From Bdellovibrionota bacterium (GTDB taxonomy: Bacteria; Bdellovibrionota; Bdellovibrionia; Bdellovibrionales; JAEYZS01), in assembly GCA_963169515.1 (NCBI GenBank), contig CAUJEF010000007.1, positions 2,024 through 66,023 of the forward strand: a stretch of 64,000 nt of DNA, written 5' to 3'. The stretch's first letter is position 1; each line of letters opens with the position of its first letter. A program made the position numbers. Below, one piece after another: positions 44,101 through 50,100 of this stretch.

Positions 44101-47100
44101 ACTTTACATAAAGCCAAAAAATTATTGCGTCTCAAATGTAACCATATGAAATCACTGTGTTTATAATACATTTTGTAAGTTTCGAATTTTGAAAAAAGAT
44201 TAGACTTTAGTCGATTCTGGTACGGTTGGAGTTGCTGTGTGAAGGCAAGTGTACGGCGACCATATAAATACAAATTACAAAATTCATGACAAAATTCGTC
44301 CATTTAAGGGCATTGTAAGTTTTATAATCATATAGTCAGGGCATCGTCCCAGTTTCGACCTATGCTATACTCACAGCACTTAATCAAATCGGGGGAGAAT
44401 GGGTAAGTTGGGGCAGCTTCATGATACGCTTTGGAATCAAGTTTTTATTGGTGTTCACGTTGATTATCCAGCTCAGTGTTGGTTCAACCCCGTTTGCTTT
44501 TGCGGCTGCGGGTGATGGTTCAGATTCAAATCCGCTCACAAAAGCGGTCGTAGAAAATAAGGAACATGTAGCGCTCTGGGATAAAGCTGCTCAGGCGATG
44601 GAATCTGGGGCCGAGCTTCCAAACCAAGACCCAAATCCATTTAGCCTTGGTAACCAAAGCGTAGAGATTAACGGACGAACCTATTCTTTCAACGATTACC
44701 ATGTTTCGTTGCCGCCAGTATCCATTACCGGATTACGGGTCGTGTACGACGAGCAAAATAAGCGGCTCGTCCTGGAAGGTCTTCGGGGCCAAAATGATCG
44801 CGGATTAAATGGAACGGTTGTGGCACGTCATTTTATTCCAGACGTTGAAGTTGCAGCCATGGTTCGTGATGAAGAAATTCTGACGATTGTTGATTCTAAA
44901 GGATCTTTGCATGTCGTCTCAATGGATTACGTAGCAAAAAACATTTTTAGTTCCCCTATCCCTGTATTTAAAAATTTGTGGACATCATCGGAATCGCTTG
45001 AAGGACAAAAACTTTCAGTTCATATCGCTACGCCGGGATTGCGGCCGCCTGAAATACAAAAAAACTCGGTTGTTCCCCTGGATGAAAAGGGAAATATTCA
45101 TATTGAGTCCGGGGACTTGTTTGTTTTTAAAGGCGAAGGTTCACAAAGGGAGCTGGTGGGTGCGTTTTCGCGAAAAGTAACTTATGAAAAAATGATTCGT
45201 GGGTTTAAGTCGCTGCAACAGATGGTATTACAAATATATCCAGCAAACGTCGAACAAGCGCTTGCGCGATCCATTGTTTCAGAATTAGAGGGTCTGGAAA
45301 ATAAGTCACAGGCGGAAATGGACCCCAATACAATGCCCGCAGCGATGCGAAGAGCCCTTCTTCATATTTCAAACAAACAGATGCTAAGCATAGGCGGAAG
45401 CATACATCAGCAACAATCACGGGTTGGTCGCCAGTTTCATTTGCTTGTCCAAAATGATTGGGAAAAAACATTTGACGAGCTTGAAAAGATCGCGCGTGCG
45501 CAGTCTGAAAAGCTCGGGATTGAAGCAAGTGGTAATCAAGACTCGGATGCGGCCTACAAAAAAAGTCAAATCGATTCATTTCTTGAGGCCGGAGATCTTT
45601 CAACAATTTGGCAAAACCTCTACCGACAATCAACATTGATGCCGACCATGAAGGTAACAAAGGAACAGAAGGCGTGGGTCAAAAAGGCAAAAGAAATTTC
45701 ATTTAAATATTTAGCACCCATGATGGTGGTTGGCGCAGCCTTTGGTGTCCCATATGCGTACGAGCATTTTGAAACCCTAAGGCAAGTTCAAGCGCTAACG
45801 TGGATGTATGAAAACGCAATCCCGGATGTTGTGAAAGAAGGGGAGTATCGCCTTCCTCTTTTTGCAAGTACGGTATCTCTCCTTGCGCTGTGGCCGGGGT
45901 CAGTTTCTATATCATGGGCAATGGGCCGTGGGCTGAAGGCGCTTTCTGCCGCCGTGTCGAAGAGTACCTCAAAAATCGCACAAGGCATTCGTGACGTAGC
46001 AAAACAATGGGTTCCGCTCACAAACTGGCAACGGATTACAAGCTTTGGTATGAGATTTTATGGAAATCTTATTTACCCGGCAGTGCAAACGGTTCTTAAC
46101 AAGGCCCTTCGCCAACCGACAATGATTTCGGCATGGAACCAGGGCCTGAACCCATTTAAGACTATAGCGCCTGGTTCTGTTATTGGTCAGAAAATAGGGC
46201 TTAAAAAACCAACGCGCGCGGGGGTATTAAACCCTTTTTCTCGGGGAGATGACAGAGAGCAAGTTAAAAACACACAACTTCAAATCCAGGCAATGTTAGC
46301 GGAAAGAAAGCTTCGCATTGAAAATTTATCTCTCAAAATTGCAACTTTAGTGGTCGCAGAAAAGGAAAAGGTAGATCCGGCAACAATAGACATGATCATG
46401 AGAGGAGCTCTGGATCCAGCAAAGCTGGAAGAAATATTTAAAAGTAAAGATCTACAGCGGGAATGGGAGCGAACCCAAGATACCGTTGCGCGGTATTTAG
46501 ACGGTCTGGGCGAGGGATATTTTGATCAAGACACGAAAGAAATATCACGTGATATGGTCGCAAAGCACTATGCGTATGCAAAAGACATTGTGAAAAAAAT
46601 CAAAGAGCAGAATAAAAAACGTCGATATATAGATCATCTGTGGCATCAGTCACGCATCGGGTTAAAAAAATCACGGGAAACATTATTTAATTTAGGTGTT
46701 CAAGACAGTCAGTTTTTGAAAACAATATTTACGAACAAATATGTATCCGAGCAAACGGAAAGAGGATTTGTATCTGATCATCTGATGGTGGTCTTAATAA
46801 TGGCGTTTATCGGTGAGCGGGCAGATCTGTCTGATCCAAGAAACCTAGCGGCGAATGCAAATGAGGCGCTTTGGACAAATCCACCGCACTGGTCAGATGT
46901 TGGCTCTAACACGTACGCACATTTTTTTGTGGCAGGGTCCAAGCGGGCGTTAGTATTTCAATCTGTAAAACCGGAAGATTCTTCTGCATATGAGCCCGTA
47001 GAATATTTATGGACAGATAGTTTGAATCGCAGAGAGGGCATTGGTCGGACTGCTTACCAGTGGGTTCGTAACGTAATAGATCCGCGCCGCTCTGATATTG

Positions 47101-50100
47101 GACAAATTGCCTTAAAAACTTTTTTCAAGCGACTTACAACCATTCAAGCTGCTTTTGTAATGACGCTGGCTTTTAGAATGGGATTAGGGGGGCAAGATTT
47201 TGGTCAAGCGATGCTGGGATGGTTATTATTTTTCTTTGCGGGTCAGTGGTATTATGCGTGGCCGTGGGACGTTATTGATCGGGGGACACATCTTGAGGGC
47301 GAGCGCATCGAGGAAATGAAAATGGAATTGAAGAAGGCTTTTGCCACAGTATCGCAAGGGTTGCGCGATCAAAACCAAGAAAGATCTTTGGAGTCAATTC
47401 GTGAAGGACAAACGAAAATATTTGAATTGATGAAAAGATATAACCCAAAGGCACTCGAGCTATTAACCAAAACTATGTCTACAGCCGGATTAAATGAACT
47501 TCACGATCAATATAAGTCTGTTTTTAATCAGGCTTCGATGAAAAACTTAAGCCAGATGGCCCGCTTGTACGTGGCAATTCAATCCGGAGACGAATCAAAA
47601 ATTCAAGAGGCCGCATCAGAATTAAAAGAGGCTCTTGCTTCGGGTGGAAATTTATCCCCTGAGGTAGAAAAGCTAAATGCGTCTGCACTTCTTCAGTTCT
47701 CTCTTAAAAATTCTCCAGTTTTTACATCGGCCCATCCGTCTGTTTCATGGGTTGCCGTGTTTGGTCTGGGCGCAGTTCTTACGACGATTTTAGCAATTCC
47801 ACTTTCAGTTAAGTCTTTTGATCCCAACTTCTTAAGTTGGGGGAATGTTGGATTTTGGGCGGCAGTGAGTTTGGCTGCGTACTGGCTGTATAATAAGACA
47901 TTATCGAAAAACGGATGGGCGGCTCAGGGCTTAAATCGGATTGATGCGTGGTGGGCACAGAAAAAACTTCAGAAACAAGCGGATACCAAGACACCAAACG
48001 CTAGCCCATTAAATCTAACTTCACGAGAAAGAGTTTGCGTCGAGTTGTTCGCTACGCAATAAAATTGGACGCATGAATATTGTTTCCAAACTAAAAGAAA
48101 ATCCTTTTGTGTTGGCTCCGATGGCGGCCATCACGGACAACGCATTTCGTTCGTTTATGAAAGAAATGGGCGTGTCGATCGTTGTGTCAGAGCTTATTTC
48201 GTCCAATGGAATCAAGTTTGGAAGTGAAAAAACATTGGCGATGATGAAATTTGATTCGCTTCAGCACCCTGTCGGGATTCAAATCTTTGGGGATGATCCC
48301 ATGATTATGGGTGAGGCCGCAAAAAAAGTTCAAGATATGGGGGCAGATTTTGTAGATTTGAATTTTGGTTGCCCAGTAAAAAAGGTTGTCCAAAAAGGCG
48401 CCGGTTCGGCGATCTTAAAAGACCTCAACTGCGTTCGATCCATGCTCTCAACAATAAGGAAGGTGTGCACAATTCCTATTACAATTAAAATCCGCACCGG
48501 ATGGGACGATAACAGTCGAAATGCACACGAGGTTGCCCAGATTGCTTACGAAGAAGGAATCAGTTGGGTCGCAATTCATGGCCGTACTCGAGCCCAAGAT
48601 TACACCGGACTGTCGGACTGGGATTACATAGCCGACGTCAAAGCGTCAGCGAAACTTCCAATTATTGGAAATGGAGACATTCATACCGCGGCCCAAGCCG
48701 TGGAACGATTAAAAACTTCGGGATGTGACGGCGTAATGATCGGCCGCGGGTGCCTAAAAAATCCATGGATATTTCAAGAGGCGCTCTTCTTGTCACAAGG
48801 TTCTAGCGGCGTTCTGCAGAAAAGCCATGCAGAGGCCTTCGCGCGATTACGTTTTTACCTTGAACAAAATTGCAACGAACACATAGTTTCAATTCAATTG
48901 CGAAAATTTGCGGGCTGGTTTTCTTCGGGATATCCAGGCGGGTCTGAATTCCGCAAATCAATTTTTCAAGTGAAGCTACCAACAGAAATTTTTAATTTGA
49001 CGTTGGACTACTTCAACTCTGTGAATAAATTTAATCAGATCGATACAAGCGATGAAAAGTTCCTAATGGGCGGACATGGGTAGTTAGACATTGTCATCAG
49101 ATGGAAAATCACCAGAATCCTCGGGGTCTTGCATTTCCACTGGAGCAATCGGGTCGGTTTCATCGGCGGGGGACTCGGTTGAAAAGAAAGTGTCCATTTG
49201 AAGCTTTGCCGCCGTGTACTCTTCATCAGTAATTTTTTTATAATAATTCATTTTGTAAAGGATTTGACTTAGTCGATCACGGGTAAAGTCCGTTAGCTTT
49301 TTTTTATAAAAATTCAAAGAATATTTTTCTGGGCTTGGCAATAAAAACGCAATGAAAGATGCTTCGAGCGGTGTCAGATCAATTGGGGGTTTATTAAAAT
49401 AATGATAAGAGGCCTTTTTTACACCGTAAATACCTTTTCCCAATTCGACGACGTTTATGTATTTTTCAAAAATAAAATCTTTTGAATAGGACTTTTCAAT
49501 TTCATATGTGATCAGGGCTTCTTTAATTTTGCGAACGACAGACTTGTTTTTTGTTAAATAGACGTTCTTAGAGAGCTGTTGTGAAATTGTCGATCCGCCA
49601 CGGGCATATCGTCCCTCGAGTAAATTTCTGCGAAAACTTTCTCGAATTTCCGCAAAATCAAATCCATTGTGGCTAAAAAATCCAACGTCTTCAGAAACAA
49701 GAATGGCATTTTTCAAATTGGGAGAAACTTGATCTGTGGTTACATAATCATTTGAAGTTTTACACAAATAAACTTTGTACATTTGTGTTGTAAGACAATT
49801 TTTTAAGCTCGAAACGTCGGGCAGTTGGGCATACAAAAACAAAACAATGGATCCTAATACGCACAGGGCGCCAAATGTGGCTATAAATCCAATCTCAAAA
49901 AGACGTAAAAATATTTTCATGACTTTGCCAGAATATTTTGCTTCACCCAGTTTACACTTTGCTGAACGGCATAGCGAGCAGATTTTGGTCTAAGTCCCAA
50001 TGCTGCTTTTGCCTTAGAATTGTCATACCAGTGGAACATGACGGAAGCCCACGCGTTTTCTGAATTAATCGGCCCCTTGCGACCAATTTTTTCCATGAAG

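What a model noticed while it worked through the whole genome (the two positions that open the first line are those of the whole stretch)
44421..48062. A C-terminal Cys tail (C-x-x-[LIM]-F, 0-7 residues from the end) shared by unrelated signal-peptide proteins, three of t [...]
At least eleven otherwise unrelated proteins of this genome combine an N-terminal signal peptide with the same short tail at the very C-terminus: a floppy polar stretch, then Cys-x-x-(Leu/Ile/Met)-Phe and 0-8 more residues. Members: g00152 (C7 46444-50085, 1213-aa orphan, ..RVCVELFATQ), g00003 (C1 872-4879, tandem-AAA+/M41 protease, ..SCLNLFGGN), g00492 (C31 8519-9460, Ser/Thr kinase, ..TCPDLFPL), g01257 (C84 14581-15681, Amidoligase_2, ..VCEQIFAAAAGF), g01402 (C93 9808-12123, 771-aa orphan, ..LCVQIFSFANSN), g00846 (C55 3811-4878), g01121 (C76 11125-12054), g01761 and g01762 (C116 2428-3291), g02161 (C148 3304-4272; no clear leader, polytopic), g02241 (C154 6295-6849). 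In six it is the only [...]
Evidence so far: This proteome: regex C.[DENQ][LIMY]F.{0,6}$ in the last 12 residues hits 9 complete proteins vs mean 0.6 (max 4) in 200 draws of internal windows; regex C..[LIM]F.{0,8}$ hits 12 of 2314 proteins with intact C-terminus vs mean 1.9 (max 8) in 300 draws; 10 of the 12 begin with a signal-peptide-like segment; 1 (g01737, cytoplasmic methyltransferase) is taken as chance. Sister-genus genome G140 (380 kb sampled around two orthologues; 354 crude ORFs >=100 aa): 10 ORFs with the tail vs mean 0.57 (max 3) in 300 draws, 9 of 10 with a hydrophobic leader in the first 36 residues, 8 not orthologues of the starting genes, several adjacent. Homologue sets (all that the searches returned): Amidoligase fam [...]
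(Added by a program. Inside this text positions count along the whole contig: contig position 2,024 is position 1 of the stretch shown here. "Call 12" and the like, gene names such as g00115 and contig names such as C1 are that model's own, and its searches are not shown. The text may have been shortened before it was handed on; [...] marks where a part breaks off. The agent that wrote the report below was given it as the finding of a first reader that could run no searches.)

Follow-up and report, generated by a model that had tools for sequence, protein, structure and literature searches.

The report
Cysteine tag on predator attack proteins
Bacteria of the predatory Bdellovibrio group put the same tiny one-cysteine tag on the front or back end of many unrelated exported enzymes, and in the laboratory model species the tagged genes examined are ones switched on as it enters its prey, so the tag is probably an address label for weapons sent into the prey.

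Summary
Confirmed: 12 of 2318 proteins end in Cys-x-x-hydrophobic-Phe against 2.0 by chance, and the same motif follows the signal peptide in about 10 others. The cysteine is kept in 18 of 18 homologues of the window protein, 16 of 16 AAA+ orthologues and 120 of 120 of another family, across the phylum. The scan noted this tag before on other genomes (e1-7045157, e1-3313322). New here is the link to predation. In a blind 1.2-Mb sample, all five exported proteins with a clean C-terminal tag are B. bacteriovorus HD100 proteins in the published 240-gene 'predatosome' (6.6% of genes); two also rise at prey entry in an independent proteome. A prediction held: the entry-peaking Fic protein (probably Bd2033, reported in a predation screen) carries the tag. 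Much cargo needs ATP or NAD, which fits action in prey cytoplasm. Best reading: a position-free thiol-helix docking signal for prey-directed effectors, working like the mitochondrial Mia40 signal. Array fold-changes are small.

The parts
44421..48062 (+). Gene for a 1213-aa exported orphan protein carrying the tag; found in 6 of 6 other genomes of its family and 4 of 7 of a second family
   Evidence: no informative Pfam, NCBIfam, Atlas or fold match
44421..44504 (+). Sec-type signal peptide, residues 1-28 (judged from sequence; no dedicated predictor run)
   Evidence: hydropathy 1.78 over residues 1-19; leaders in most of 17 homologues
44658..45167 (+). N-terminal all-beta domain, about residues 80-249, weakly like propeller blades (Z about 5, not significant)
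47736..47792 (+). The one strongly hydrophobic segment of the mature, mostly helical body (residues 1106-1124)
47985..48035 (+). Polar linker before the tag, free in length and sequence among homologues, pLDDT under 50
48036..48050 (+). The tag: lone Cys1206, hydrophobic residue at +3, Phe at +4; modelled as a short terminal helix detached from the body
41248..42516 (-). Cytoplasmic ABC1/UbiB-type kinase without leader or tag; not part of the system, but an untagged paralogue of the exported, tagged kinase Bd2345

Best explanation
The motif is a docking signal on the mature ends of Sec-exported effectors of Bdellovibrionota. After export and signal-peptide removal, the five-residue tag forms one helical turn with the unpaired Cys and the +3/+4 hydrophobic residues (also +7/+8 in other orders) on one face. 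A dedicated partner binds that face side-on and holds the cargo by a mixed disulfide, and so loads it for delivery into the prey during entry, where ATP- and NAD-using cargo (kinases, Fic/ADP-ribosyltransferase, AAA+ protease, NIS-synthetase-like and amidoligase enzymes) can act. Shown: the motif, its conservation, its use at either end, the cargo classes, and induction at prey entry in B. bacteriovorus. Inferred: the helix in solution, the disulfide, the partner, and the destination. I put about 0.95 on 'a real selected signal', 0.75 on 'marks prey-directed proteins', 0.5 on the whole chain.
For: Enrichment at both ends. Cys kept behind a free linker in 18 of 18 homologues of the window protein, 16 of 16 AAA+/M41 orthologues with intact ends, 29 of 30 Bd3134-family loci (98; one mis-framed), 120 of 120 listed Bd2922 homologues, +4 hydrophobic in 119, 20 of 20 Bd1788-family loci at the N-end. 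Exported soluble proteins of this genome favour even Cys counts (274 even, 136 odd; cytoplasmic 389/539), so a kept odd Cys needs an outside partner. Same direction of the motif with cargo on either side implies side-on binding (inference). Two models show a terminal helix of lower confidence than the domain. Unrelated proteins of one genome share a local variant (21, 41, 46; seen by eye). Five of five clean C-tags in a blind 1.2-Mb sample (74) are HD100 proteins (75, 78) on the 240-gene predatosome sheet, as is N-tagged Bd1788; counting dropped rows as misses P = 2.5e-5 to 3.8e-3. Bd2922 is in the proteome's entry-peak cluster and Bd2345 rises at 30-45 min. Prediction made before looking: the entry-peaking Fic protein carries the tag, its cytoplasmic paralogue does not; its C-terminal part resembles ADP-ribosyltransferases and Bd2033 is cited as a transposon-defined predation gene. 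Bd2922 has an ATP-binding NIS-synthetase fold. 0 of 11 exported YkuD/S8/transglycosylase-type enzymes in the sample are tagged.
Against: No reader found: no recurring neighbour family, no conserved odd-Cys candidate stood out, T2SS genes and dsbA are not induced at 30 min. Array fold-changes are only 1.2-1.9 and the table's t-test exceeds 0.05 for Bd1038, Bd2265 and Bd1788; all tagged genes are 'silent' in RNA-seq, and weakly expressed genes may drift upward on arrays. Four of six were not detected in the proteome. The relaxed-pattern gene Bd1362 is not in the predatosome. Most predatosome genes in the sampled range are untagged. Some tagged cargo is periplasm-type (a subtilase, a VWA protein). 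No family shows the tag at one end in some members and the other end in others. The expression data come from another family than this window's genome, whose predatory life is inferred. Bd2033 was placed by position only.
Confidence: 0.5

Rival explanations
1. The tag is read on the prey's side or serves as a safety catch: it couples the cargo to the prey's own thiol-disulfide machinery for crossing the inner membrane, or tethers a toxic enzyme to a holding chaperone in the predator's periplasm until release by some other route.
For: Same cargo and timing evidence; the predator's T2SS and dsbA are not co-induced; no co-inherited machinery gene seen.
Against: Variants shared by unrelated proteins within a genome (21, 41, 46) fit a predator-encoded reader better than conserved prey proteins; a holding chaperone is itself a form of the best explanation.
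Confidence: 0.2
2. The Cys is lipidated by an unknown enzyme and anchors the proteins to the predator's surface or vesicles, like MYXO-CTERM without its membrane helix.
For: Invariant Cys near an end after a flexible linker, as in MYXO-CTERM (PMC11980579 passages); an amphipathic helix could lie on a membrane.
Against: No transmembrane helix or basic tail; no Rce1/CPBP protein found in this 96%-complete genome; in other orders the tag sits on proteins that already have a lipoprotein Cys (98, 102, 110); residues before the N-end Cys are not a lipobox.
Confidence: 0.14
3. Tags pair with each other, joining exported enzymes into homo- or heterodimers that work in the predator's own envelope or in the bdelloplast periplasm.
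For: Genome-wide variants would keep tags mutually compatible; tagged genes are sometimes adjacent; some cargo is periplasm-type.
Against: Does not explain why much cargo needs ATP or NAD; most tagged genes are scattered singletons with untagged neighbours (12, 77, 100).
Confidence: 0.12
4. A chance pattern or separate family-specific structural cysteines.
For: The motif is short; about 2 matches per genome arise by chance; the N-end form is not enriched in genus g32.
Against: Enrichment over nulls and permutations, invariance in four unrelated families, rarity in control loci, and the expression link (4, 24, 74, 82, 102).
Confidence: 0.04

Closest known systems
Mitochondrial intermembrane-space targeting signal (ITS/MISS) read by Mia40 (PMC2806287; passages read)
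   Same: A docking Cys with hydrophobic residues at 3 and 4 (and 7) positions away on one helix face, usable near either end of a substrate; in human COX17 the hydrophobic residues lie downstream at +3, +4, +7, as here.
   Different: Eukaryotic; substrates have twin-Cys motifs and end with internal disulfides; here the Cys is unpaired, the cargo is large Sec-exported enzymes, and no Mia40-like reader was identified. An analogy of mechanism, no homology claimed.
MYXO-CTERM and related Cys-bearing C-terminal sorting signals with myxosortase (PMC11980579; passages read)
   Same: Signal peptide plus a short terminal motif with an invariant Cys after a flexible linker, shared by unrelated proteins of one phylum.
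   Different: No transmembrane helix, no Arg-rich tail, also used at the N-end, no Rce1/CPBP protease found in this genome.
Lipoprotein signal (lipobox; Lgt/LspA) (recalled)
   Same: For the N-end form, a Cys close behind the signal peptide.
   Different: The Cys lies 1-12 residues after a signal-peptidase-I-type site with no lipobox before it, conserved residues follow it, the C-end form cannot use this route, and true lipoproteins carry the tag in addition.
Effector export signals of T3SS, T4SS, T6SS and T9SS (recalled; predator systems reviewed in PMC12428579, passages read)
   Same: A short terminal label on unrelated toxic enzymes (Fic, ADP-ribosyltransferase, kinase) meant for another cell.
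   Different: Two-step Sec export with a lone-Cys helix at either end; none of those signals has this form and no matching machine was tied to it here.

Membership tests
MYXO-CTERM-type tripartite signal | Invariant Cys in a short motif near the C-terminus | tested here: met
MYXO-CTERM-type tripartite signal | Transmembrane helix after the motif, then an Arg-rich tail | tested here: not met
   0-8 residues follow the Phe in this genome; no helix-length hydrophobic run
MYXO-CTERM-type tripartite signal | Cognate Rce1/CPBP myxosortase in the genome | tested here: not met
   PF02517 not found in G000, 96% complete; control rang in 11 of 14 genomes
Lipoprotein (lipobox) signal | Lipobox with Gly/Ala/Ser directly before the +1 Cys | tested here: not met
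   14 aligned N-end tags lack it
Mia40 ITS/MISS | Cys with hydrophobic residues at +3 and +4 on one helix face | tested here: met
   +4 hydrophobic in 119 of 120; terminal helix in models
Mia40 ITS/MISS | Aromatic or hydrophobic residue at position 7 | tested here: inconclusive
   Many tags end before +7; hydrophobic +7/+8 is common only in other orders
Mia40 ITS/MISS | Mixed disulfide with a CPC-motif receptor | not testable with these tools
   no reader identified
Prey-delivered effector signal | Cargo induced at prey contact or entry | tested here: met
   small array fold-changes, four of six unseen in the proteome
Prey-delivered effector signal | Cargo of a kind that needs cytoplasmic cofactors | tested here: met
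   Pfam or fold; many cargo are orphans and some are periplasm-type (49)
Prey-delivered effector signal | Tag necessary and sufficient for transfer into the target cell | not testable with these tools
   needs mutants and reporters
Prey-delivered effector signal | A dedicated secretion machine co-inherited or co-regulated with the tag | tested here: inconclusive
   four secretins in G000 (45); T2SS not induced at 30 min (104); no profile across tag-negative genomes could be made

The most novel reading that the evidence does not exclude
Bdellovibrionota own an undescribed, phylum-wide protein-delivery pathway in which Sec-exported effectors are clipped by a lone terminal cysteine helix onto a carrier and passed into the prey cytoplasm, a bacterial counterpart of Mia40-type thiol docking; the tag then lists the effector arsenal of every genome in the phylum, including the window's orphan as a prey-membrane protein.
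Probability: 0.4. Interest if true: 0.95.

Novelty: categorically new. Interest (0 to 1): 0.85.

Why it matters
How Bdellovibrio gets enzymes into its prey and kills it early is open (review PMC12428579, passages), and 174 of the 240 predatosome genes were hypothetical. A sequence tag that picks out Fic/ADP-ribosyltransferase, kinase and ligase-like proteins among them gives named genes in a genetically tractable strain (Bd1038, Bd1788, Bd2265, Bd2345, Bd2922, Bd3134, probably Bd2033), a one-residue mutation to test, and a cysteine handle with which to pull down the unknown machine. It would also be a kind of bacterial sorting signal not found in my ten literature searches: five residues, no membrane anchor, either end.

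Tried and rejected
Identity of the window protein: NCBIfam, Pfam, Atlas, Foldseek (no E under 0.001) and VIA-align (best Z 6.3, none at 8) gave nothing usable; the search for related loci found no relative. A profile of 14 N-end tags against 1.84 billion proteins returned 5 hits, three of them matching training proteins in length, so it was too weak to use. A published primer found no named B. bacteriovorus record. End-swap within a family: none among 109 tag-like ORFs or 120 Bd2922 homologues. Reader search by neighbours (73 neighbours, only orthologue or transposase pairs; 100) and by conserved odd cysteines (181 proteins; 123): none. The entry-induced Bd1044-1047-like genes have no homologue in this genome, so they are not a universal reader. 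A Walker-A/kinase regex cross-table was dominated by chance matches. Small-genome samples G014 (110 ORFs) and G024 (96) had no convincing strict tag, too little sequence to call absence. A formal within- versus between-genome test of the local variants was not completed, so that point is by eye only. Loci for three searches could not be cut, so their ends were not seen. No complex prediction was sent, as no partner candidate existed. Sequence searches of solved structures for Bd2922 were blank.
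Full report
1. Observation. The window gene 44421-48062 encodes a 1213-aa protein with a signal peptide and a single Cys, eight residues from the end, with a hydrophobic residue at +3 and Phe at +4. 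Eleven have a leader. Permuting the motif letters gives 0-5 at the C-end against 12. In 69 loci not labelled as Bdellovibrionota (1046 ORFs) there were 4 matches, one with a leader. Leaders were judged by a permissive hydropathy rule, not a trained predictor. The genome's placement among Bdellovibrionales rests on named best hits and on genus g32 of the same order holding proteins named B. bacteriovorus.

2. The tag works at either end. The same motif stands 1-12 residues behind the signal-peptidase site in 10 of 2193 proteins (12 against 1-7 for permuted motifs). A relative, G001, had 3 C-end and 5 N-end tags in 185 ORFs. The residues before the N-end Cys are not a lipobox. In genus g32 only the C-end form was above the permuted controls (7 against 0-2; N-end 3 against 0-5). 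No family held both forms.

3. It is under selection and phylum-wide. All 18 proteins returned for the window gene keep the terminal Cys while the linker before it changes freely. All 16 AAA+/M41 orthologues with intact ends, from six families of the order, have a Cys 4-10 residues before the last residue, with Phe or Leu at +4 in 14. The Bd3134 family occurs in 45 of 201 phylum genomes; 29 of 30 loci cut have the terminal Cys, one was mis-framed by my script. All 120 listed of 310 Bd2922 homologues have it; +4 is Phe 72, Leu 27, Ile 6, Met 5, Val 5, Tyr 4, Ala 1. In other orders, including proteins named Bacteriovorax, the tag rides on true lipoproteins and is longer, with hydrophobic residues also at +7/+8. 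Within a genome, unrelated proteins share a local variant: in G030 four unrelated exported proteins replace the hydrophobic pair by basic and small residues in the same way. This was seen by eye and not tested statistically. Exported soluble proteins of G000 favour even Cys counts (274 even, 136 odd, 201 none; cytoplasmic 389 and 539), so a retained odd Cys is unusual. In two AlphaFold models the tag is a short terminal helix of lower confidence than the domain (pLDDT about 42-46 against a mean of 75; 63-72 against 93).

4. Cargo. In G000: tandem AAA+/M41 protease, Ser/Thr kinase, Amidoligase_2, a GTPase-like protein, and 16 of 20 scanned without an informative family. In genus g32: ABC1/UbiB kinase, peptidase C26, a protein named FCP1-homology by its source, and Bd2922, whose model matches ATP-binding NIS synthetases (E 1.4e-10). 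Cytoplasmic paralogues of the ABC1 kinase and of the Fic protein lack both leader and tag. That the periplasm lacks ATP and NAD is established knowledge. Counter-examples: a tagged subtilase and a tagged VWA protein. The window protein itself stays an orphan: a beta domain, a long helical body and one strongly hydrophobic segment; acting on a prey membrane is a guess.

5. Link to predation. I scanned 1.2 Mb of G061 (1053 ORFs) before looking at any expression data: 6 strict C-end matches against 1.49 expected (max 5 in 200 draws), and 1 strict N-end match. I dropped two before the look-up, a six-Cys protein and the two-Cys N-end match. The other five, and one relaxed N-end candidate, are named by their sources as B. 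bacteriovorus HD100 proteins and map by accession series and gene length to Bd1038, Bd2265, Bd2345, Bd2922, Bd3134 and Bd1362 (PMC3627812 supplement rows). All five strict ones are on the predatosome sheet of PMC2797640 (supplement rows; 240 genes, 6.6%, passages); Bd1362 is not. N-tagged Bd1788, found separately, is on it too. Counting the two dropped rows as misses, P(5 or more of 7) is 2.5e-5 against all genes, 7.8e-4 if all 240 were leader genes, and 3.8e-3 if all were among the 35% of genes silent in RNA-seq. Limits: fold-changes are 1.2-1.9 and three of six have t-test values above 0.05 in that table; all seven are silent in attack phase and at 3 h. In the independent proteome (PMC12546842 supplement rows) Bd2922 is in the entry-peak cluster (log2 5.0 to 6.1 at 30-45 min, 3.1 at 5 h) and Bd2345 rises 0.9 log2 at 30-45 min (FDR 0.03-0.04, imputed); the other four were not detected. 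One supplementary PDF there had no text and was not searched.

6. A prediction. The entry-peak list includes Bd2033, a Fic protein. I predicted a tag and then looked: of two Fic genes in G061, the 770-aa one has a signal peptide followed by a lone-Cys tag; the 195-aa one has neither; a homologue in another order has a lipoprotein Cys and a second Cys in a tag-like helix. Its identity as Bd2033 rests on position and domain only. Its C-terminal part draws ADP-ribosyltransferase-like Atlas clusters at 0.90-0.92, a lead; the family is in 29 of 201 genomes, not in G000. PMC2797640 states that Bd2033 was among the transposon-defined predation genes of Tudor and co-workers (passage; original not seen), and PMC3526173 lists Bd2033 and Bd3134 among the few induced genes shared with Bacteriovorax marinus (passage). 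In the reverse test, 0 of 11 exported YkuD-, subtilase- or transglycosylase-type enzymes in the sample are tagged. Most predatosome genes are untagged, so the tag marks a subset.

7. Mechanism. A motif read in the same direction with cargo on either side must be bound side-on. Cys, +3 and +4 lie on one helix face, the layout of the Mia40 docking signal, which in human COX17 also runs downstream of the Cys (PMC2806287 passages). I therefore favour thiol docking onto a predator-encoded carrier that routes cargo into the prey (0.5); then prey-side reading or a holding chaperone (0.2), lipid anchoring (0.14), tag-to-tag pairing (0.12), chance (0.04). No reader was found: four secretins and two DsbA-like genes exist in G000, no Rce1 protease; T2SS and dsbA genes are not induced at 30 min, while the TonB/Agl-like cluster Bd0412-0420 is, a lead only.

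8. Prior knowledge. Ten full-text searches found no description of the tag; the library lacks most subscription papers and bioRxiv supplements were closed. NCBIfam has no model hitting the window protein. Also read in passages: PMC11980579, PMC12428579, PMC12419801 (secreted Bdellovibrionota effectors proposed, no such tag in the passages), PMC7925074, PMC3818213.

9. Verdict. A real, apparently undescribed terminal sorting signal of Bdellovibrionota, tied by published expression data to prey entry and testable at once in a model strain. Its reader and the destination of its cargo remain inferred.

Noticed in passing
G000 C1:5373-5954 and C84:13649-14215 (loci L001, L005); a copy at C7:18208-18762, window about 16185-16739: A repeated gene of about 190 aa with 7 close copies and 1 distant one in the genome, transposase-like by recall, lies directly beside two tagged genes; may point to mobility of cargo genes.
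   Followed up: partly
G058 L174:17984-18322; Bd1787: A small ankyrin-repeat gene abuts the tagged Bd1788 gene; an immunity role is possible, as recalled for another Bdellovibrio ankyrin.
   Followed up: no
G058 L174:16209-17006 (Bd1789-like) and G061 L243:6536-7138: Cys-free exported proteins sit just upstream of two N-tagged genes; Bd1789 is induced at entry and in prey-free growth. Possible helpers; BLAST did not link the neighbours.
   Followed up: partly
Bd0412-0420 (not fetched): TonB/Agl-like cluster induced 4-8 fold at entry in both datasets; a candidate motor for delivery that I could not test.
   Followed up: no
L226 (G079): A distant Bd1788-family protein has the N-end tag and two further cysteines near its C-end.
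   Followed up: no
L301, L303, L312; open frames of 1450-2235 aa: In other orders tagged cargo domains occur in much longer proteins, suggesting multi-domain effectors under one tag.
   Followed up: no
window 41248-44017 (-): Lipoprotein-like orphan, TetR regulator and ABC1 kinase run divergently from the tagged gene; not kept beside its orthologues.
   Followed up: partly
G002 (L133, L140): Two paralogues of the window gene in one genome.
   Followed up: no
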